Below are positions 6,745-14,711 of a stretch of 18,594 nucleotides of DNA, piece by piece (the first letter of the stretch is position 1; every line of letters begins with the position of its first letter). Source of the DNA: Promethearchaeota archaeon (GTDB lineage: Archaea; Asgardarchaeota; Lokiarchaeia; Sigyniarchaeales; SOKP01). The stretch covers positions 23,965-42,558 of the forward strand of contig JBHLOC010000041.1 in NCBI GenBank assembly GCA_048940925.1, written 5' to 3'. The position numbers and the translations under genes are program-made. The notes beneath the pieces are model-generated. The model searched no databases, was not told where the DNA came from, and saw only the letters and a list, made by a program, of their open reading frames with translations.

Positions 6745-8859
6745 CTACCCCTCTTTATTTAAACGTATAATAAAACTGCTACCTTTATTTCTTCCTTCAG
6801 ATTCGACAAGTATTTTGCCTCCGTGTAATTCTACTATTTCTTTTGATATATAAAGTCCTAATCCAGCACCCTCAATGTCTACATCCAATTCTTGTCCGTA
6901 TCTTTCAATTTTACCAAATCTTTGAAATAATATCTGTCTTTCTTCTTTTGTGATTCCTACACCTGTATCCCTAACAATTATATCAACAAAATCATTAGTT
7001 TCATTTACATTTATGAATACATTCCCATGTGGAGGTGTATTCTTTATCGCATTTGATATAATATTTACCAATACTTGAGTAATTCTAATTTTATCTAAAT
7101 TTAAATAGATTTCATAAGATAGATCAGTAGCCAAGGTTAATTCTCTACTCTCTGCCAAATAATTTAATTCTTTTACACAATCCTTAATAATTGAATTTAA
7201 ATTTTCATTTGAACGTCGTATTTCATATTTATAGTTATCCAGCAACGATGCATCTAGTAAATTATCTACTAGTTCTTTAAGCCGTAGAGATCCACGATGT
7301 AAGATTTCTATATAGGGCCATATCTCTTCAATATAATCATCTATTTGTGATTTTAATAATATTTGGGTTGCACCATACATAGAAGTAAGAGGAGTCCTTA
7401 ACTCATGTGATATTCTCGTTATGAGTTCTTTTCTCAATTTATCAATTTTTTTTAATCTGTCCATTTCATTTTCGATGATTTTCCTTGCTTTTATACTCTC
7501 TGTAATATCCCTAATGAAAATTAAATTACCAGGTCTGGTTTGATAATGAATAGCTTTTAAAAAAAGTTCTAACCAGATAATTTCACCAGTCTTTTTAAAC
7601 AATCTAAATTGAAAACTTTCGATATCTTGAATTAAATCTTTAGTTTTATTATCAATAAGTTCTTTGATCCTATCTAAATCATCAGGGTGGAGAATCTTAA
7701 AAAAATCTGTAATCTTCCAGGCCAATAAATCATCAGAACTGTACCCTAGCATTTTAGCAAATTGAGGATTTACATATTTCAAATCAAAGTCTTGTTCTAT
7801 TACCGCACCAATAAATGATTGCTCAGTAATTGTTCTAAATTTTTCTTCAGATTCTTTTAATAATTGTTCTGCTTTTTTACGTTCTGTGATATCTCTAGAA
7901 ATTACAATTACTTTTGGATCTCCTTGAGTATCAACAAAAACTTTACTTATTAAGTCTAACCATATAAAGTGTCCGTCTTTATGTCTGAATCTTACTTCTT
8001 CTTTATACTCTCCTTCTTTTACTTCGATTTCTGATGTTGAAATTCCTCTTGAACTCACTATACGTTTTAAATCTTCAGGATGAACTATTTCCCACACACT
8101 ACTACCTATCAAATCTCCTTTAGAATAACCCAAAATATTTCCGTAGGCATATTCATTTATATATTCATGTTCATATTTATTGTTCAATAATGCAATTAAA
8201 TCATTTGCGTTTTCTGATATAAGTCGATATTTCTCTTCGGATTCTAGTGCTTTTTCTTGAGATTCAATCAGCTTTCCTTCTAAAAAGATAAAAATAGGAA
8301 AGACAAAATAACAAGTTCCAAATATAAACATTGCTACAAAACTAAATTCCCATACTCCAGGTAAATTAAAATAAGATAGTATAGTGGAAATTGCTGAAAG
8401 TAAAGCAGAAGCTTGGAAAATGACTAAAGAAGCATGTTTTGTGCTTCTTTTCACAAATAATAATTTTATAAACATACCCATACTAATTAAAAGCAATAGT
8501 GAAAATACAATCTGAATGCTCATTATAATACCTGTAATAGAGCTAAAAATTAGAATTATAGTGCTATTCTTAATACTGCTCCCAGTCCTTTTAGCGGTCT
8601 CATGAAGAGCTTTAAAGTATTCATAGTAGACTGCTGAAATGAATGCAATGATGCCTATCAAAAAGAATAAGTTACCTACTAATCGATAGATAGAATCAAA
8701 TACCTGTAGATAAATAAATAAATACCCAATAGGAAGGATAATATATGAAGGTAAATAAATAGTTAAATCTTTTCTCTTTAAATTTACTAAAGAAAAAACA
8801 ACTGTTCCCAATATTAATAATATCGTTATTTGAAAGTTTAAAATGGTCTCCTCAAGCAT
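6745..8859 (-). CDS. Membrane-anchored PAS-PAS sensor histidine kinase
   Basis: N-terminal multi-TM region; two PAS/PAC domains (VHPEDL...SRDITERK and LHPDDL...IRDITE); H-box SHELRTPLT; N-box NIISNAIK; G1 DTGVGI; G2 GAGLGL. Confidence 0.95.
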   Translation of the reverse strand: MLEETILNFQITILLILGTVVFSLVNLKRKDLTIYLPSYIILPIGYLFIYLQVFDSIYRLVGNLFFLIGIIAFISAVYYEYFKALHETAKRTGSSIKNSTIILIFSSITGIIMSIQIVFSLLLLISMGMFIKLLFVKRSTKHASLVIFQASALLSAISTILSYFNLPGVWEFSFVAMFIFGTCYFVFPIFIFLEGKLIESQEKALESEEKYRLISENANDLIALLNNKYEHEYINEYAYGNILGYSKGDLIGSSVWEIVHPEDLKRIVSSRGISTSEIEVKEGEYKEEVRFRHKDGHFIWLDLISKVFVDTQGDPKVIVISRDITERKKAEQLLKESEEKFRTITEQSFIGAVIEQDFDLKYVNPQFAKMLGYSSDDLLAWKITDFFKILHPDDLDRIKELIDNKTKDLIQDIESFQFRLFKKTGEIIWLELFLKAIHYQTRPGNLIFIRDITESIKARKIIENEMDRLKKIDKLRKELITRISHELRTPLTSMYGATQILLKSQIDDYIEEIWPYIEILHRGSLRLKELVDNLLDASLLDNYKYEIRRSNENLNSIIKDCVKELNYLAESRELTLATDLSYEIYLNLDKIRITQVLVNIISNAIKNTPPHGNVFINVNETNDFVDIIVRDTGVGITKEERQILFQRFGKIERYGQELDVDIEGAGLGLYISKEIVELHGGKILVESEGRNKGSSFIIRLNKEG

Positions 8860-9182
8860 ATTATCTCACTATATTTTAAAATATATAATTTATACCAATT
8901 CTAGAGTAATTTTATACTTTTAAACAATCTTTCTTAAAAAAGATCCAAATATCATATAGATATACTTAGTTTTAATCTTTCTTACTACACTTCCCAAAAA
9001 TACAATAGAAAATGAATATTTATTTATTAAAGTTAAATTTCAAGCTTTGCCCAGATTATGGTCTAAGCTTAATAGTAGATACGATAATTCGGATTCTTTT
9101 TCATTTGATGATGGACAACTATGTAAAAGAATTAATAAATAGTAAGCAATAAAATAAAAGAAAAGAATTAGAAATAAATTAA

Positions 9183-9805
9183 TTATTCACTTTCATATTC
9201 TTTAAGTATATCGCCAAAAAGACGTTTTACAGCATCAATACGAGTCTCTTCTCCAATTTGTTCAACGTTTTTCAAGCTTATGGCTTCTTTCGGGCAAACT
9301 AAGATACATTGGGGCTCTTTGATACCAGTTTCTTCATCAATAAATTCATCTTTCATATTTTCACAGAGATCACATACCAACGCTTTTTGGGAATCTAAAT
9401 GCAAGCTAATTACGCCAAAATCGCAGGCTCTCTTGCTAATGTATGCGATTTGCTAATGCATTTTATGCAGAACCCGCAACCGTTACACTTATCATCATCC
9501 ACGATAATTGATCCTGTTTCTGGGTCTTGTTCTAATGCTTTTTCAGGACAACTACGAATACATGGTGCATCTTCACATTTCTGACAAGCCAGAGCTATAT
9601 TAAACACTGGTTCAATTCGTATACGATGAATCCTTGCATTAATAGGGTTAAATTCACCATCATGTACAAAAGAGCATACGGATTCACATGTCTTACGCTT
9701 TTTGGGAAATCCAAATAGAGTTTCGCACCCCGTACACAGATTTGGATCAACAATAATGAATTGGTGGACTTTGCCACCTCGCTTTTTAGTTCCTATTTTT
9801 GACAT
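9183..9805 (-). CDS. 4x[4Fe-4S] electron-transfer subunit (DmsB/CooF/AorA-like) of the adjacent AOR; three exons 9805-9722, 9691-9464 and 9431-9183, giving 186 aa after splicing
   Basis: Joined product: MSKIGTKKRGGKVHQFIIVDPNLCTGCE|TCESVCSFVH...CQKCEDAPCIRSCP...CNGCGFCI|RACDFGVISLHLDSQKALVCDLC...PQCILVCPKEAI...YESE, with all 16 canonical Cys in four motifs. Merges track ORFs 9410-9805 and 9183-9404. GAGGTG RBS upstream of ATG 9805. Confidence 0.9.
9432..9463 (-). other. Candidate BHB-like intron 2, 32 nt, frameshifting
   Basis: mRNA: UUGCGGGUUC-UGCA-UA^A-AAUG...CAUU-AGCA-AG^A-GAGCCUGCGA. It has a 10-bp exon-exon stem (with G-U pairs), a central helix with 3 of 4 pairs, two 3-nt bulges and an intron stem AAUG/CAUU. 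Removal restores CNGCGFCIRACDFG and the frame. Confidence 0.8.
9692..9721 (-). other. Candidate BHB (tRNA-type) intron 1, 30 nt, in frame
   Basis: mRNA: G-UGCG-AA^A-CUCUAUUUGGAUUUCCCAAAAAG-CGUA-AG^A-C. It has a 4-bp central helix UGCG/CGUA, two 3-nt purine bulges and an intron hairpin UUUGG/CCAAA. Removal converts CTGCETLFGFPKKRKTCESVC to CTGCETCESVC. Confidence 0.75.
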
Positions 9806-9821
9806 TTTTTCACACCTCTAT

Positions 9822-11750
9822 TTATTTCTTCTTACCTCCTGCTGGTTTTAAGTTTCCAATTACAAAATCCATTCCAAGTTTCTTTAATGTTGCATCTGTT
9901 GGGATCCCTGTTTCTTTATCCCATCCTCTTGCTTCATAATATCCACTTAACAACTTCTGAAAACCATCTTCCTTTAACATTACTCCCTTTGCAGGACCTT
10001 TTGTATGTGCCGTAGTAAAAAATCTTTCAGGTGGATGATCATCAGCTCTCGTCCATCCTTCTCTGATATTGAAACATTTTGATAAAGTAACAATAGCGGC
10101 TCCTCGTAAAAGTATAGATTCTTCCGTATGCGGAATTCCAGTAACCAGTTCAAAAACTTTTGCCAATTCAGCATCGTTTTCATAAATACCTCGAGTAAAT
10201 TTACAGATAACATACGAATCTATAAGGGCATAGGGATCTTCAAGTGCGATAATTGCTTTTCCACGTTCTAATGGCTTATCATAACCAAATCTGTCAAAAT
10301 TTCCCTTAGCATCGAGCCCATATGAACCATTTCGTAAGTGACAAGCGCCTCTAATAGATACGCTTTCTCCTACTGCAAAGGTGCTCATTCCATGTAAATC
10401 AAATGCAGGCATTTCCAAGCCTTTAATGTGCATTGCATACTTACTTGCTCCTTTTCTTCCCATTTCTTCTAATTTTTCACCGGCAACTTTAGTTCCATGA
10501 CCAAATATTTCACCCGCAAAACCTTTCTCAAGAATCATTTCTTCTGTAAAACGTGCTAAATTTTTAGTGGAACCAAATGGGAGTTCATAACCAAGATCAT
10601 CTTTGGTTATCAGTCCGTCAGTAAACAAATCACATGCCATTGCAGCTGTAACTCCTCCGCTAATGGCATCAATTCCTAAGTCATCACATAAATGAATACA
10701 TTTAAATACAGTTGGCCAATCAGCATTACCACACCCTGTTCCAAATCCATATAATAATTCAATATCAACACTAGCTATGAGATTTGGCCAATCAGGATGC
10801 GTTTTAGGAATCCGAGCTAAATGATCACACCCTATAGAACATTGGGAACATGCAACTTTTTTAACAACCCAATCTTGGTTAAGGGTATCTCCTGTAAATT
10901 CTCCATTGGTGATTTTATCCCATGTACCTTCGCGATGATTAAAAGTAGGCATCATTCCAAGTTTATTATAACTAGTGAGCCCCGCAGGGGTTCCTAAATC
11001 ACGATATTTTGCTGTTGCAGGGCCATTAGCAACCTTTATTAATTTTTTAGCTAATTTATAGAATTCTTTTGGAGATGCCACCTTAATTCCTTTCGTTCCC
11101 CTAAAGCATATTGCCTTTAGATTTTTAGAGCCCATAACAGCACCCATACCAGTCCTTCCTGCTTGCCTATTTCTGTCGTTAGTAATACACGCCATATGAC
11201 TCATTCGTTCTCCTGCAGGTCCAATCGACAAAACAGCTAAACGTTGATCTTGGAAATCTTCTCTTATAATTTCTTCAGTTTCAAAAGTACCCTTACCCCA
11301 CACAGTTTTTTCACATGGAACTAAATAATAATCATCGTCATCAACAACCATGTAAACAGGTTCAGGTGATTTTTCTTTAAATACTAACATATTTACACCT
11401 GCACGACGAGCTTGGGCACCAACTGAACCAGAAGAAATTGCCATACCAAACATTCCAGTCAATGGAGATTTAGCAAAGACTCCGTATTTTGATGATGTTG
11501 GTAAGATTGTACCTGGAAAAGGACCTTGAGCATATACAAAAATATTTTCTGGACCTAGAGGATCAACACCTGGTTTTAATTCATCCCAAAGTACTTTTGC
11601 ACCAAATCCATACCCCCCAATCCAATCGCGGCAGAATTCATTGGACAATGTTGATTTTTCAATTTTCCCGTTTGCTAAATCGATATCCAGTCTTACTTGA
11701 CTAAAACCTTTTATTTCATCAGGAACAGGTATTTCTTTCGCTTTACTCAT
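9822..11750 (-). CDS. aor: Tungsten-containing aldehyde oxidoreductase (AOR/WOR family), catalytic subunit
   Basis: WIGGYGFG, KSPLTG, IGPAGE, GRTGMGAVMGSKNLKA, the CSQCSIGC...RGACH [4Fe-4S] ligands, DDLGIDAIS pterin-binding motif and YYEARGWD..TGIP C-terminus. Confidence 0.96.
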   Translation of the reverse strand: MSKAKEIPVPDEIKGFSQVRLDIDLANGKIEKSTLSNEFCRDWIGGYGFGAKVLWDELKPGVDPLGPENIFVYAQGPFPGTILPTSSKYGVFAKSPLTGMFGMAISSGSVGAQARRAGVNMLVFKEKSPEPVYMVVDDDDYYLVPCEKTVWGKGTFETEEIIREDFQDQRLAVLSIGPAGERMSHMACITNDRNRQAGRTGMGAVMGSKNLKAICFRGTKGIKVASPKEFYKLAKKLIKVANGPATAKYRDLGTPAGLTSYNKLGMMPTFNHREGTWDKITNGEFTGDTLNQDWVVKKVACSQCSIGCDHLARIPKTHPDWPNLIASVDIELLYGFGTGCGNADWPTVFKCIHLCDDLGIDAISGGVTAAMACDLFTDGLITKDDLGYELPFGSTKNLARFTEEMILEKGFAGEIFGHGTKVAGEKLEEMGRKGASKYAMHIKGLEMPAFDLHGMSTFAVGESVSIRGACHLRNGSYGLDAKGNFDRFGYDKPLERGKAIIALEDPYALIDSYVICKFTRGIYENDAELAKVFELVTGIPHTEESILLRGAAIVTLSKCFNIREGWTRADDHPPERFFTTAHTKGPAKGVMLKEDGFQKLLSGYYEARGWDKETGIPTDATLKKLGMDFVIGNLKPAGGKKK

Positions 11751-11948: not shown

Positions 11949-14711
11949 TTATGTTAAAAAGAGAAGCTTTCCAATAAAGCTAACAAGATCAATTATTGTT
12001 ATTTTATCCTTTAGCTCTTTATGTTCATTTAGATAGCAATTTAGATGAGCGATACACTTAGGGCATGCAGTAATTAAATATTCTGCCCCTGTGTCAATAG
12101 CTTGAGTAATTTTCTTTTCCTGTAAGAATTTTGAATCTTCACTGCAAGAAATATATGCTGAAACTCCACAACAATCTGCATCTTGTCTATTATCTTCCAT
12201 TTCAATTAATTCCACAGATGGTATTAATTTTAAAACCTCACGAGGAGCATCGAAAACATTGCTCATTCTTCCAAGTCTACAAGGATCATGATAAGTGACT
12301 TTAATTTTATCAAAACTGGGAAATGTTAATCCTTCAAATAGATTCTCTTTTAATATATATTCAGTAATGTGATATATTTTAAAATCAAACTCATTAGTAT
12401 CTTTAAAAAGTTTCTTATATTCATATTTCCAAGTATAATATCCCTCAGCACAGCTAAATACAATCGTATTGACTCCTGCTTCTTTAAAAAGATTAACATT
12501 ATATTTTGCTAGTTTCTCGAAATTTTCGGTGTCTCCTTGCCATAAAAGATCATGCCCACAACATTTTTCTTCACCTAAAACTACTGGGGTAATGTCACTT
12601 TGGTTCAATAATGCTATTACGCTTTTTGGTATCTCTAAATAATCTAAGGCATTAATCGAACTAAAATTTGGTTGTTCTCCATAATGACAAGTCATAATCC
12701 CTGAAGAATCAAGAGAATTATTGTAATCATCAAGAATTTGATCATAACTACAGCAGCAATTACAGTTCATGCATCTACTTGCTTCTGCGATTGCCTGCTC
12801 CTCTGTAAATCCAAGTTCTATTTCTTTAAAATTAGTAAGTCGTTCTTCGCTTGATACAAGATTGATTTTTTGTTGCAGTTCTTCATCAATCTGTTTTTTT
12901 GGAATAGGCGAACGCTTTAAATTTTCTCGTTTGATCCTACCTTTTCTTAAATCACGTCCTCTGAGATACCGATCAATTGATTCTGCAACCTCTTGGCCAT
13001 GTGCTATTGCAGTTATAGCAACCATTTTAGGATTTGGAACAATGTCTCCTCCCGCAAAAACACCAGGAATGCTTGTTTCAAAAGTGATGTCATCTATTAA
13101 GATCTTACCTCTTTCATGTTGGAGTTGATCTCCAGTAGCTGCTAAAATTGGCTCCAAATCAAGTCCTTGACCGATTGCAATAACAATTATATCAGATGTA
13201 ATTTTAAATTCTGAACCCTCCACTTTAATTAATGGTTTTCTCCCAGTATTAGGATCTGGTTCACCCCATTCAATTTTATAACAATTCAACGCTAATTTAT
13301 TTCCTGATTCTTTTGTTATCTTTGATGTTGAGGTTTTAAAATGATACTCTATTAACTCCCTCTCAGCATCATGGATATCTCTAAGTACAAGTTGAAGATC
13401 CTCTTCAGTTAATATATCTACTAAATCAACTTTCTTAGCTCCTAATCTCAGAGCAGTTTCAGCAACATCTACTGCCACAGCACCTCCACCTATGATTCCA
13501 AAAGTTTTTCCTTTATATTCATCTTTATTCTGAGGGAATTTATACTTTCGCTCAAGAAGGAAATCAATTGCAACCTGAACATTCGGTAAGTCTTCTCCCT
13601 CAAGGTGTAAAGTTTTAGGAACGTATAAACCTGTAGCTATAAATGTAGCTTTAAAACCTTCATTTTTAAGGTCTTCAAGAGTTAAACCTTGACCAAAAGG
13701 TTTATTTAATAAGATATCCACACCCATATTTTTTATAAATTCGATATCATGATCAAGGGCTTTATCAGATAATCGATATTGGGGTACACCATACCGCACC
13801 ATTCCTCCAATCTTATCTCCTTTCTCAAAAATCGTAGGTTTATATCCCTTTCTTGCGAGGAGATAGGCTGCTGATAACCCTGCTGGTCCAGCTCCTATGA
13901 TTGCCACTTTTTCTTTATCTTGTTTTACGGGCTTAATTTTGCTTAAATCAGGATTATTCATCTCCCAATCTGAAATAAAGCGCTTTAAAACTCTAATAGC
14001 AAGGGGATCATCAATATATTGACGATTGCAATTCAACGCACAGTATTCTGTACATATTCTCCCACATAAGAAAGGTAAAGGGTTGGCTTCCCTTATAAGA
14101 TCAATAGCTTCTTGAAACTTCCCTTCTGCTATTAGCGAGACATAACCTTGGACATCTACTCCAGCAGGGCAGGCACATGAACATGGAGCAATACCTGTCA
14201 TATATGGAGTACACCCCATAAAATAACCGATTTCTCCCTTATTAGCAACCTTTAAATCAGTACCTTCTAAAAAACCAAGCTTATTTGTAATTTTTATTTT
14301 TCCATTAGCCATTAAATAAGGTAAGCTAGAATATTCCCTATTATGATGACATATAAGCAATTCATCTTGCAATGGCTTATAATCAGAAGAGAGAGATCGG
14401 AGATCTTTTATAATTTGAGTAAAATTAACCCCGATATCTTCTTTAGTCATAGGACAATACTCTGAACAGAGCCCGCATGTTAAACATTTCCATATATTAT
14501 TATTCTTTAATGCTTCTTCAGGTGATAAAAATGTTAAATCTACAATTAAACTACGTGGATAAAATAGATCAAGAAATGCAGTAGGACACACCATATTGCA
14601 ACGATTACAATTATAACAATAATTAGCTGCAGCATTAACTTTCTTTATAACTTCTATTGATTCTTTACTCTCAAGTTTTTTAATTGGCTCTTTATCTTTA
14701 GAAACAGTCAT
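11949..14711 (-). CDS. HdrD-like FeS/CCG-domain oxidoreductase with an inserted GltD/NfnB/SudA-type FAD/NAD(P) module
   Basis: N-terminal CYNCNRCNMVCP and CLTCGLCSEYCP. The first CCG domain is split (GYFMGC ... EKCCG ... FSCAEG) and the second is intact (YHDPCRLGR...DCCG...TACPKC). The insert has APCSCACP, CGRICTEYC, GAGPAG, GGGAVAVDVA, FAGGD and EASRCMNC. Confidence 0.9.
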   Translation of the reverse strand: MTVSKDKEPIKKLESKESIEVIKKVNAAANYCYNCNRCNMVCPTAFLDLFYPRSLIVDLTFLSPEEALKNNNIWKCLTCGLCSEYCPMTKEDIGVNFTQIIKDLRSLSSDYKPLQDELLICHHNREYSSLPYLMANGKIKITNKLGFLEGTDLKVANKGEIGYFMGCTPYMTGIAPCSCACPAGVDVQGYVSLIAEGKFQEAIDLIREANPLPFLCGRICTEYCALNCNRQYIDDPLAIRVLKRFISDWEMNNPDLSKIKPVKQDKEKVAIIGAGPAGLSAAYLLARKGYKPTIFEKGDKIGGMVRYGVPQYRLSDKALDHDIEFIKNMGVDILLNKPFGQGLTLEDLKNEGFKATFIATGLYVPKTLHLEGEDLPNVQVAIDFLLERKYKFPQNKDEYKGKTFGIIGGGAVAVDVAETALRLGAKKVDLVDILTEEDLQLVLRDIHDAERELIEYHFKTSTSKITKESGNKLALNCYKIEWGEPDPNTGRKPLIKVEGSEFKITSDIIVIAIGQGLDLEPILAATGDQLQHERGKILIDDITFETSIPGVFAGGDIVPNPKMVAITAIAHGQEVAESIDRYLRGRDLRKGRIKRENLKRSPIPKKQIDEELQQKINLVSSEERLTNFKEIELGFTEEQAIAEASRCMNCNCCCSYDQILDDYNNSLDSSGIMTCHYGEQPNFSSINALDYLEIPKSVIALLNQSDITPVVLGEEKCCGHDLLWQGDTENFEKLAKYNVNLFKEAGVNTIVFSCAEGYYTWKYEYKKLFKDTNEFDFKIYHITEYILKENLFEGLTFPSFDKIKVTYHDPCRLGRMSNVFDAPREVLKLIPSVELIEMEDNRQDADCCGVSAYISCSEDSKFLQEKKITQAIDTGAEYLITACPKCIAHLNCYLNEHKELKDKITIIDLVSFIGKLLFLT

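What the first reader, a model, noticed from the sequence alone, without database searches (positions are those of the whole stretch)
9183..9805. Two candidate tRNA-type (bulge-helix-bulge) introns in an archaeal FeS protein mRNA
Seen: the FeS-subunit gene next to aor carries a 30-nt insert (9692-9721) and a 32-nt insert (9432-9463). Removing them yields an intact 186-aa protein with four complete Cys motifs, with no other lesions. Each junction folds as exon stem / 4-nt helix / two 3-nt bulges / intron hairpin. Cutting after the second nucleotide of each bulge gives exactly the protein-restoring junctions (TGC GAA^ACA TGT and TGC ATA^AGA GCC). Established: archaeal EndA cuts BHB motifs at that position and RtcB ligates the exons. 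The well-documented archaeal mRNA case is cbf5 in some Crenarchaeota. Inference: an apparent Asgard archaeon splices a multi-intron metabolic mRNA with the tRNA-splicing machinery. Such genes would be mis-annotated as frameshifted or split. I cannot check whether this was reported before.
Basis: partly seen in the sequence, partly recalled or inferred. Interest (0 to 1): 0.95.

Follow-up and report, generated by a model that had tools for sequence, protein, structure and literature searches.

The report
Two tRNA-type introns in Asgard gene
The iron-sulfur partner gene of an aldehyde oxidoreductase in a Loki-type Asgard archaeon is interrupted by two real genomic inserts of 30 and 32 bases. Both have the shape cut by the tRNA-splicing enzyme, so the protein can very probably be made only after the messenger RNA is cut and rejoined, a process published so far for essentially one archaeal coding gene (cbf5).

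Summary
On the minus strand, gene 9805..9183 carries a 30-nt in-frame insert (9721..9692) inside the first Cys motif. It also carries a 32-nt frameshifting insert (9463..9432) inside the third. Removing both gives a 186-aa protein with 16 Cys, about 90% identical to intact 185-aa homologues.

- **Genomic:** assemblies of four sequencing runs from three studies carry both inserts.
- **Absent elsewhere:** over 100 related genes lack them exactly at these points.
- **Shared sites:** about 15 distinct relatives carry diverged inserts at the same two sites.
- **Fold:** those inserts keep a bulge-helix-bulge (BHB) fold, with compensatory changes even at synonymous exon positions. The cut sites the fold predicts give the conserved C-I/V-R-A-C and C-E-T-C joints.
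- **Selection:** the exon downstream of the frameshift is under strong purifying selection in all 13 carrier genes examined.
- **Enzymes:** the genome encodes a catalytic and a structural EndA subunit and RtcB.

No RNA data exist for this gene, so splicing is inferred. I put it at about 0.93 for intron 2 and 0.78 for intron 1, which is in frame and has a relaxed motif.

This scan has noted such mini-introns before, in this genome and in at least 41 others. I verified one here myself (purA). I found no published report for Asgard archaea.

The parts
9183..9805 (-). Whole split gene for the 4x[4Fe-4S] electron-transfer subunit (WOR5-S / AorA type). It sits 17 nt downstream of the AOR gene.
   Evidence: The spliced product is 186 aa. 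The nearest solved relatives are 6x6u_B and 8c0z_C.
9722..9805 (-). Exon 1 (84 nt), ending ...TGC GAA.
9692..9721 (-). Intron 1, 30 nt, in frame. Shifting the boundaries by +1 or +2 gives the same mRNA.
   Evidence: Absent in 106 of 125 related genes. Present at the same site in L082, L111, L115 and L117.
9724..9727 (-). Intron 1 central helix, 5' strand (UGCG). It pairs with 9694-9697 (CGUA). The 5' bulge is 9723-9721.
   Evidence: this helix is paired in 95% of cells across five alleles.
9694..9697 (-). Intron 1 central helix, 3' strand. The 3' bulge is 9693-9691.
9729..9737 (-). Exon-exon helix closing intron 1. It pairs with 9674-9682 and is separated from the 3' cut by a 7-nt loop, which makes this a relaxed HBh' form.
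   Evidence: 93% paired, with 3 pairs showing compensatory changes. Intron-less genes are 72% paired.
9464..9691 (-). Exon 2 (228 nt).
9432..9463 (-). Intron 2, 32 nt, 'type B' sequence family. A +1 shift of the boundaries gives the same mRNA. A -1 shift also restores the frame, giving Met instead of Ile.
   Evidence: Types A and B occupy the same site in relatives.
9466..9469 (-). Intron 2 central helix, 5' strand (UGCA). It pairs with 9434-9437 (AGCA) as 3 bp plus an A.A mismatch. The bulges are 9465-9463 and 9433-9431.
   Evidence: Sequence read. The energy of the BHB fold is -15.8 kcal/mol against an MFE of -20.8.
9470..9481 (-). Exon-exon stem of intron 2, 12 bp, pairing with 9419-9430.
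9183..9431 (-). Exon 3 (82 codons plus stop), out of frame with exon 2 unless intron 2 is removed.
   Evidence: Intact in 13 carrier alleles, with pN 0.02-0.24 against pS 0.6-1.0.
9822..11750 (-). Aldehyde:ferredoxin oxidoreductase (tungsten/molybdopterin family), the catalytic partner.
   Evidence: AFOR_N and AFOR_C, E 6e-65 and 9e-94.

Best explanation
Both inserts are archaeal bulge-helix-bulge (BHB) introns in a protein-coding transcript.

Proposed mechanism: the aor-FeS mRNA is transcribed with both inserts. At each one, exon and intron sequence fold into a 4-bp helix flanked by two 3-nt bulges. The heterotetrameric splicing endonuclease (EndA alpha from contig 58, beta from contig 18) cuts between the 2nd and 3rd nucleotide of each bulge. 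RtcB (contig 40) joins the exons. The resulting mRNA encodes the 186-aa four-cluster subunit that carries electrons from the AOR.

Intron 2 is obligatory, because without its removal the protein ends after the third Cys of cluster motif 3. Intron 1 is a relaxed (HBh'-type) substrate.

Shown: the inserts are genomic, the sites are shared, the fold is conserved, the exons are under selection, and the enzymes are encoded. Inferred: that cutting and joining happen, and which enzymes do it.

The introns are polymorphic, present or absent with exact boundaries. Two unrelated sequence families occupy site 2.
For: 1. **Genomic.** Contigs from four runs in three studies cover both inserts with 0 differences. 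Contigs from relatives in the same samples join the exons directly at 9691/9692 and near 9465.

2. **Homologues.** Intact 185-aa proteins lack both inserts. Truncated or 10-aa-longer proteins mark carriers. Of 125 related genes, 106 have neither insert, and the carriers have 30 and/or 31-32 nt at exactly these sites.

3. **Intron 2 fold.** Ten distinct type A alleles fit the structure h(8)-H(4)-B3-h'(10). Cells are 93.6% paired, against 35-60% when partners are slid. Five pairs show compensatory changes, and 0 of 500 shuffles reach the observed pairing. One compensatory pair links two synonymous exon positions (Cys TGC/TGT with Ala GCG/GCA). It is paired in 10 of 10 carriers but in 38% of intron-less genes. 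The exon stem is 94% paired in carriers and 71% in intron-less genes. Unconstrained MFE folds of L122 and L111 are canonical BHBs.

4. **Cut sites.** The cut rule gives UGY AU|A AGG in type A alleles and UGC AUA|AGA in the window. Both encode the conserved C-I-R-A-C.

5. **Intron 1 fold.** H is 95% paired, h' is 87% paired with 2 compensatory pairs, and the exon helix is 93% paired with 3 compensatory pairs, against 72% in intron-less genes. Its 'codons' change amino acids 5-7 times faster than the flanking exons (pN 0.37-0.50 against 0.06-0.07).

6. **Exon 3.** It is an intact ORF in 13 carrier alleles and is under strong purifying selection.

7. **Rarity of the motif.** The window's intron 2 motif occurs at 2 of 9.6 million genome positions.

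8. **Machinery.** There are two EndA paralogues, one with the Tyr/His/Lys catalytic residues and one without, plus RtcB. Asgard EndA is reported as (alpha-beta)2 with the loop that confers broad specificity (PMC5829648).

9. **Second case in this genome.** purA carries a 31-nt insert with H GGGG/CCCC, and removing it restores WGDEGKGK.
Against: - No RNA evidence exists for this gene. No RNA run holds it, and no database protein equals the spliced product.
- The window's own motifs are imperfect. Intron 2 has an A.A mismatch in the central helix, and its BHB fold lies 5 kcal/mol above the MFE. Intron 1 lacks a stem directly after the 3' bulge, and its local motif is common by chance (1.7e-3).
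- Whole-region folds are not unusually stable (z = -1.4 to -1.6).
- Intron 1 is in frame and stop-free in all five alleles, so a translated insertion is not excluded.
- The alleles are related, so shuffle statistics overstate independence.
- My genome-wide count of canonical motifs shows no excess over a mirror-image decoy.
Confidence: 0.8

Rival explanations
1. Only intron 2 is spliced. The 30-nt insert is a translated 10-residue loop between the 2nd and 3rd Cys of cluster motif 1.
For: - It is in frame and has no stop in all five alleles.
- It ends in a basic K/R-K/R-K tail in most alleles.
- Motif 4 of the same protein naturally has a 24-residue loop at the equivalent place.
- Its local BHB motif is not rare by chance.
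Against: - The conserved 3' end is the strand that pairs with exon UGCG.
- Amino-acid change is 5-7 times faster than in the exons, and all 4 differences between L115 and L117 are non-synonymous.
- The exon helix is tighter in carriers than in intron-less genes (93% against 72%).
- Presence and absence are exact to 30 nt, with at least 5 changes on the gene tree.
- Four of the five distinct alleles examined at site 1 sit in genes that also carry intron 2.
Confidence: 0.15
2. The gene is a decaying pseudogene or an assembly artefact, and the inserts are ordinary insertions.
For: As annotated, the gene is truncated: gene callers give 98-141-aa products.
Against: - Identical sequence appears in independent assemblies.
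- There are no other lesions.
- Exon 3 stays open and under purifying selection in 13 alleles from several clades.
- The same two sites recur with diverged inserts of constant length.
Confidence: 0.02
3. The inserts are skipped at translation (ribosomal bypass or frameshift), or the gene is expressed as two polypeptides that assemble.
For: Type A alleles have a stop codon 1-3 codons into intron 2 and a hairpin, which superficially resembles the phage T4 gene 60 bypass.
Against: - There are no matching take-off and landing codons, and the triplet before the landing site is UAA in L085 (sequence).
- Intron length varies between 31 and 32 nt.
- No start codon precedes exon 3, and a split would separate the 4th Cys of motif 3 from the other three.
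Confidence: 0.02

Closest known systems
cbf5 pre-mRNA BHB intron of Crenarchaeota (Watanabe 2002; Yoshinari 2006; Yokobori 2009, PMC2738675)
   Same: - A short intron (16-44 nt there, 30-32 nt here) lies inside a coding sequence.
- The BHB motif is mostly relaxed.
- Cuts fall between the 2nd and 3rd bulge residues.
- The host has a hetero-oligomeric EndA.
- Relatives show patchy gain and loss.
   Different: - The phylum is Asgard/Promethearchaeota and the gene is metabolic.
- One mRNA carries two introns.
- Two unrelated intron sequence families use the same site, offset by 1 nt.
- Splicing is not yet shown by cDNA, whereas for cbf5 it was.
Archaeal tRNA and rRNA BHB introns, including the heavily interrupted tRNA genes of Asgard archaea (bioRxiv 10.64898/2026.10.13.758758; PMC5829648)
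   Same: - The motif and the presumed enzymes are the same.
[quoted passage not shown]
- ARAGORN finds only 34 tRNA genes in this genome and reports an intron in 22 of them, though many of those calls look unreliable.
   Different: The host RNA is an mRNA. The exon halves of the motif are therefore built from codons and are tuned through synonymous sites.
HAC1/XBP1 unconventional mRNA splicing in eukaryotes (IRE1 cut, RtcB or Trl1 ligation)
   Same: - The mechanism is protein-only and needs no spliceosome.
- A short mRNA intron is excised and changes the reading frame.
- RtcB-type ligation joins the exons (from my own knowledge).
   Different: - The endonuclease is IRE1 and the stem-loop cut sites differ.
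- The eukaryotic event is regulatory. Nothing here suggests regulation.

Membership tests
Archaeal BHB (EndA/RtcB-spliced) intron | A central 4-bp helix flanked by two 3-nt bulges on opposite strands, each bulge 3' of its helix strand. | tested here: met
   - Intron 1: UGCG/CGUA, 4 bp, with bulges AAA and AGA.
- Intron 2 in the window: 3 bp plus an A.A mismatch.
- Intron 2 in relatives (L085, L111, L121, L122, L169): 4 bp.
Archaeal BHB (EndA/RtcB-spliced) intron | Outer helices h (exon-exon) and h' (intron) flank the bulges, as in the canonical hBHBh' form. | tested here: inconclusive
   Intron 2 meets this, with h of 12 bp and h' of 4 bp. Intron 1 meets h' but not h: it has one pair, then a 7-nt loop, then 9 bp. 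That is the relaxed HBh' form, which the literature reports as cleavable only by (alpha-beta)2 or epsilon2 enzymes (PMC5829648).
Archaeal BHB (EndA/RtcB-spliced) intron | Cutting between bulge residues 2 and 3 yields a functional mature RNA. | tested here: met
   The predicted joints give CETC and CIRAC, complete CxxCxxCxxxC motifs and the frame of exon 3. The same holds in all relatives' alleles.
Archaeal BHB (EndA/RtcB-spliced) intron | The structure is conserved by covariation across homologous introns. | tested here: met
   5 compensatory pairs in each intron, 88-94% of cells paired, and slid controls at 14-60%. Caveat: the alleles are related.
Archaeal BHB (EndA/RtcB-spliced) intron | The host encodes the splicing endonuclease and an RNA 3'-P ligase. 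| tested here: met
   EndA alpha (C58, 198 aa, Tyr/His/Lys present), EndA beta (C18, 200 aa, lacking Tyr and His) and RtcB (C40).
Archaeal BHB (EndA/RtcB-spliced) intron | The intron is absent from the mature RNA, and a circular or linear excised intron is detectable. | not testable with these tools
   No RNA run holds this stretch, and the one run look-up allowed is used.
AOR-associated polyferredoxin subunit (WOR5-S / AorA) | About 170-190 aa with four [4Fe-4S] Cys motifs, encoded next to an AOR-family gene. | tested here: met
   - Four motifs and 16 Cys.
- The intact homologue P0007 hits 6x6u_B (E 2e-24) and 8c0z_C (E 8e-21).
- The AOR gene ends 17 nt upstream.

The most novel reading that the evidence does not exclude
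The two introns belong to a genome-wide population of ~30-nt BHB mini-introns that move between protein-coding genes in Loki-type Asgard archaea.

- Site 2 of this gene is occupied in different lineages by two unrelated intron families, offset by 1 nt.
- The window's family shares a 13-nt core with the purA intron, and these are the only two copies of that core in 4.8 Mb.
- Presence and absence flip at least 9 times (intron 2) and at least 5 times (intron 1) on the gene tree.

If true, the closest archaeal relatives of eukaryotes have mobile, protein-spliced mRNA introns that settle wherever codons can supply the exon half of the motif.
Probability: 0.35. Interest if true: 0.9.

Novelty: new member of a known kind. 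Interest (0 to 1): 0.8.

Why it matters
In the papers I could search, endonuclease-dependent splicing of an archaeal coding sequence is documented only for cbf5 in Crenarchaeota. This gene would add three things.

- It extends the mechanism to Asgard archaea, the closest archaeal relatives of eukaryotes, and to an ordinary metabolic gene.
- One mRNA would need two such events.
- Selection for the splice motif reaches into synonymous codon positions of the exons.

There is also a practical consequence. Gene callers split or truncate such genes: the database holds 98-141-aa fragments of this one. Metabolic reconstructions of Asgard genomes therefore under-count functional genes.

The exact presence/absence polymorphism, and the sharing of one site by two intron families, make intron gain and loss directly testable in this lineage.

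Tried and rejected
- **RNA evidence:** no RNA holder was listed for 9100-9900. Only DNA contigs could be laid.
- **Spliced product in the protein database:** the best full-length match to exon 3 is 93% identical, so no cDNA-derived copy was found.
- **Genome-wide scan for canonical hBHBh' motifs plus ORF fusion:** real and mirror-image decoy motifs gave equal numbers (46,390 against 46,551 raw hits; 13 against 8 for L 26-36 with at least 60 codons on both sides). Pfam showed that at least three of the five top hits I tested are adjacent genes. The test is uninformative, because the background is too high and the known cases here are relaxed.
- **Calibrating the cut rule on this genome's tRNA introns:** ARAGORN's calls were too unreliable. 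I took the rule from PMC2738675 instead.
- **Metagenome pattern scan:** 103 matches, of which only 4 were true homologues and 2 were new alleles.
- **Intron 1 as a copy of exon 3:** there is a 12-nt identity at 9396-9380. It holds in the window and L082 but not in L115 or L117, so I dropped the idea.
- **Translational bypass and a split protein:** considered and rejected on sequence grounds (see the rival explanations).

Full report
**What is in the sequence**

The minus strand of 9805..9183 encodes a small iron-sulfur protein. It starts 17 nt after the stop of a 642-aa aldehyde:ferredoxin oxidoreductase gene at 11750..9822, which matches AFOR_N and AFOR_C.

Read straight through, the frame gives a 131-aa product. 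Its first Cys motif reads CTGCE, then ten extra residues, then TCESVC. It ends 17 codons after CNGCGFCI. A second frame, 9431..9183, continues with RACDFG... to the normal C-terminus.

Removing 9721..9692 (30 nt) and 9463..9432 (32 nt) joins three exons of 84, 228 and 249 nt. The result is a 186-aa protein with 16 Cys and four complete cluster motifs. It matches intact 185-aa homologues at 166-168 of 185 residues, with a single gap column.

The intact homologue P0007 matches the Fe-S subunits of the tungsten enzymes WOR5 (6x6u_B) and AOR of Aromatoleum (8c0z_C). The gene therefore encodes the electron-transfer partner of the neighbouring AOR.

**The inserts are real DNA**

Logan contigs from four runs in three studies cover both inserts with no differences. 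X1 and X10 cover both inserts in full. X9 spans intron 1 and X12 spans intron 2.

In the same samples, contigs from related organisms stop matching exactly at 9691/9692 and near 9465. They continue with the sequence of the adjoining exon, so they are intron-less versions (table 7).

**Relatives**

A protein search found many intact proteins of about 185 aa, several named as Promethearchaeota or Lokiarchaeota. It also found a minority that are either truncated right after the third Cys of motif 3 or carry a different 10-residue insert at the same place in motif 1.

I measured the distance between conserved anchors on the fetched DNA. Every gene in the first set of loci had either the intron-less spacing or the same spacing plus 30 nt and/or 32 nt. 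Alleles fetched later added one 31-nt insert at site 2. In the tree set of 125 genes, 106 have neither insert.

Carriers came from two sources. Three further species genomes of the same genus carry them (G046 both, G056 and G126 only intron 2). Metagenome contigs reached through the truncated proteins carry them too, including contigs of the original Loki's Castle metagenome.

Among 161 species genomes of the class, intron 1 was found in 2 and intron 2 in 4, all in one genus.

**Intron 2**

At this site there are two unrelated insert sequences. Ten distinct type A alleles align without gaps. An eleventh type A allele, L121, has a 31-nt insert and was left out of the gap-free alignment.

The ten fit one structure: an 8-bp exon-exon stem, a 4-bp central helix (exon CUGY with intron RCRG), two 3-nt bulges and a 10-bp intron hairpin. 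Of the cells, 93.6% are paired, against 35-60% when partners are slid. Five pairs show changes on both sides, and none of 500 shuffles reaches the observed pairing.

Unconstrained folding of L122 and L111 returns this BHB as the minimum-energy structure.

Cutting between bulge residues 2 and 3 is the rule verified by cDNA for cbf5 (PMC2738675). Applied here, it gives UGY AU|A AGG GCN UGC, which encodes C-I-R-A-C as in the intact proteins.

One compensatory pair joins two synonymous sites of the exons, Cys TGC/TGT and Ala GCG/GCA. It is paired in 10 of 10 carriers but in only 30 of 78 intron-less genes. The whole exon stem is 94% paired in carriers and 71% in intron-less genes. So selection for the RNA fold acts on the coding sequence only where the intron is present.

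The window, L118-L120 and G126 carry type B. It has the same shape slid 1 nt towards the 3' end: a 12-bp exon stem, a central helix UGCR/AGCA whose fourth pair never forms, and a 4-7-bp intron stem. The predicted product is C-I/V-R-A-C.

A motif as good as the window's occurs at 2 of 9.6 million positions in this genome. A cut 1 nt upstream on both sides would also restore the frame and give Met. The structure and the conserved Ile/Val favour the boundaries given.

**Intron 1**

Five distinct alleles share a central helix of exon UGCG with intron CGYA or CACA. It is 95% paired, with one C.A mismatch in L082. They also share 3-nt bulges (AA|N and AR|A), a short intron stem with two compensatory pairs, and inner hairpins that differ in sequence but keep pairing, such as UUUGG/CCAAA against CCAGG/CCUGG.

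The exon stem does not abut the 3' bulge. The 3' cut lies in an 11-nt loop closed by a 9-bp exon helix. That helix is 93% paired with three compensatory pairs, against 72% in intron-less genes.

This is the relaxed HBh' form. According to the literature, it is cut only by the hetero-tetrameric or epsilon2 enzymes (PMC5829648).

The insert is in frame and stop-free in all five alleles, so translation through it cannot be excluded. Its 'codons', however, accumulate amino-acid changes 5-7 times faster than the flanking exons (pN 0.37-0.50 against 0.06-0.07). All four differences between L115 and L117 are non-synonymous.

**Selection on the downstream exon**

In 13 carrier alleles, exon 3 is open. 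In 11 of them it runs 80-81 codons to the normal stop; in L111 and L126 the contig ends first, at 61 and 63 codons. All Cys are kept in all 13. Synonymous sites are near saturation (pS 0.6-1.0), while pN is 0.02-0.24.

No start codon precedes exon 3, and in type A alleles a stop codon lies immediately before it. The exon must therefore be read in continuity with exon 2. That requires removing the 31-32 nt from the RNA.

**Machinery**

The genome has two EndA paralogues. The C58 protein keeps the Tyr, His and Lys of the active site. The C18 protein has Phe in place of the Tyr and lacks the His. These are the expected catalytic alpha and structural beta subunits. One RtcB is present.

ARAGORN finds only 34 tRNA genes and flags 22 of them as interrupted. 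This is in line with the report that Asgard tRNA genes are heavily interrupted (bioRxiv 10.64898/2026.10.13.758758).

**Evolution**

I built a tree of 125 alleles from about 500 nt of exon sequence, leaving the introns out. On it, carriers fall in at least seven places, each beside intron-less sisters. Examples are L229 with L024 (support 99) and L121 with L079 (support 91).

The fewest changes needed are 9 for intron 2 and 5 for intron 1. The type B carriers form one clade with support 99. The tree is short and only moderately resolved, so these numbers are rough.

Type A introns from distant clades are alike in sequence. That fits an old intron lost precisely many times, or an intron that moves between alleles.

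**Elsewhere in this genome**

Earlier notes of this scan list many candidate ~30-nt BHB introns in coding genes of this genome and of at least 41 others. Some are said to have RNA support. I treated these as leads only.

I checked one case myself. purA (G000 C41, minus strand, 44613..44583) has a 31-nt insert with a GGGG/CCCC central helix. Removing it restores the invariant WGDEGKGK.

Its intron shares a 13-nt core with the window's intron 2, and these are the only two copies of that core in 4.8 Mb. This hints at a common origin.

My own motif-based census failed to show an excess over a decoy. I therefore cannot give a count.

**Literature**

Searches of the held library found mRNA BHB introns only for crenarchaeal cbf5, plus general reviews. 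Nothing was found for Asgard mRNAs. Subscription journals are largely missing from that library.

**Verdict**

Splicing itself, and the enzymes responsible, remain inferred.

My odds that each insert is removed from the mRNA at the stated bonds are about 0.93 for intron 2 and 0.78 for intron 1. I file the finding as a new member of the known kind 'BHB intron in an archaeal mRNA'. It is notable for the Asgard host, for two introns in one message, and for two intron families sharing one site.

Noticed in passing
G000 contig C41, 44583-44613, minus strand (outside the window): purA carries a 31-nt insert inside the WGDEGKGK motif, with a GGGG/CCCC central helix and a weak exon stem. Its intron shares a 13-nt core with window intron 2 (9454-9442). 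These are the only two copies of that core in the 4.8-Mb genome.
   Followed up: partly
window 9432-9463 compared with L085, L082, L111, L115, L122 and others: Two unrelated intron sequence families occupy the same site of the gene. Type A (hairpin AAGAGA...TCTCTT) and type B (the window's) have boundaries offset by 1 nt. This suggests either independent gains or replacement.
   Followed up: partly
window 9380-9396 and 9694-9711: The 3' half of intron 1 resembles a stretch of exon 3, with 12 identical bases and weaker similarity beyond them. L082 shows a matching pair, but L115 and L117 do not. It is probably chance or an old duplication.
   Followed up: yes
whole genome G000: ARAGORN finds only 34 tRNA genes, and only 12 of them have no reported intron. 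The tRNA set therefore looks heavily interrupted or is missed by standard tools.
   Followed up: no
G000 contig C30, about 66094-66123, plus strand (L237): A 30-nt canonical BHB candidate lies between two long open frames. The downstream frame starts at position 43 of the AIRS N-terminal domain model, so this may be another coding-region intron. The upstream frame gave no Pfam hit.
   Followed up: partly
window 11949-14711, minus strand: A 920-aa fusion protein sits upstream of the AOR gene. It combines ferredoxin-like, pyridine-nucleotide-disulfide oxidoreductase (GltD/HdrA-like) and two CCG (HdrD-like) domains. It is possibly the electron-accepting module of the AOR complex.
   Followed up: no
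window 6745-8859, minus strand: A 704-aa membrane-anchored PAS/histidine-kinase-like ORF lies downstream of the Fe-S gene.
   Followed up: no
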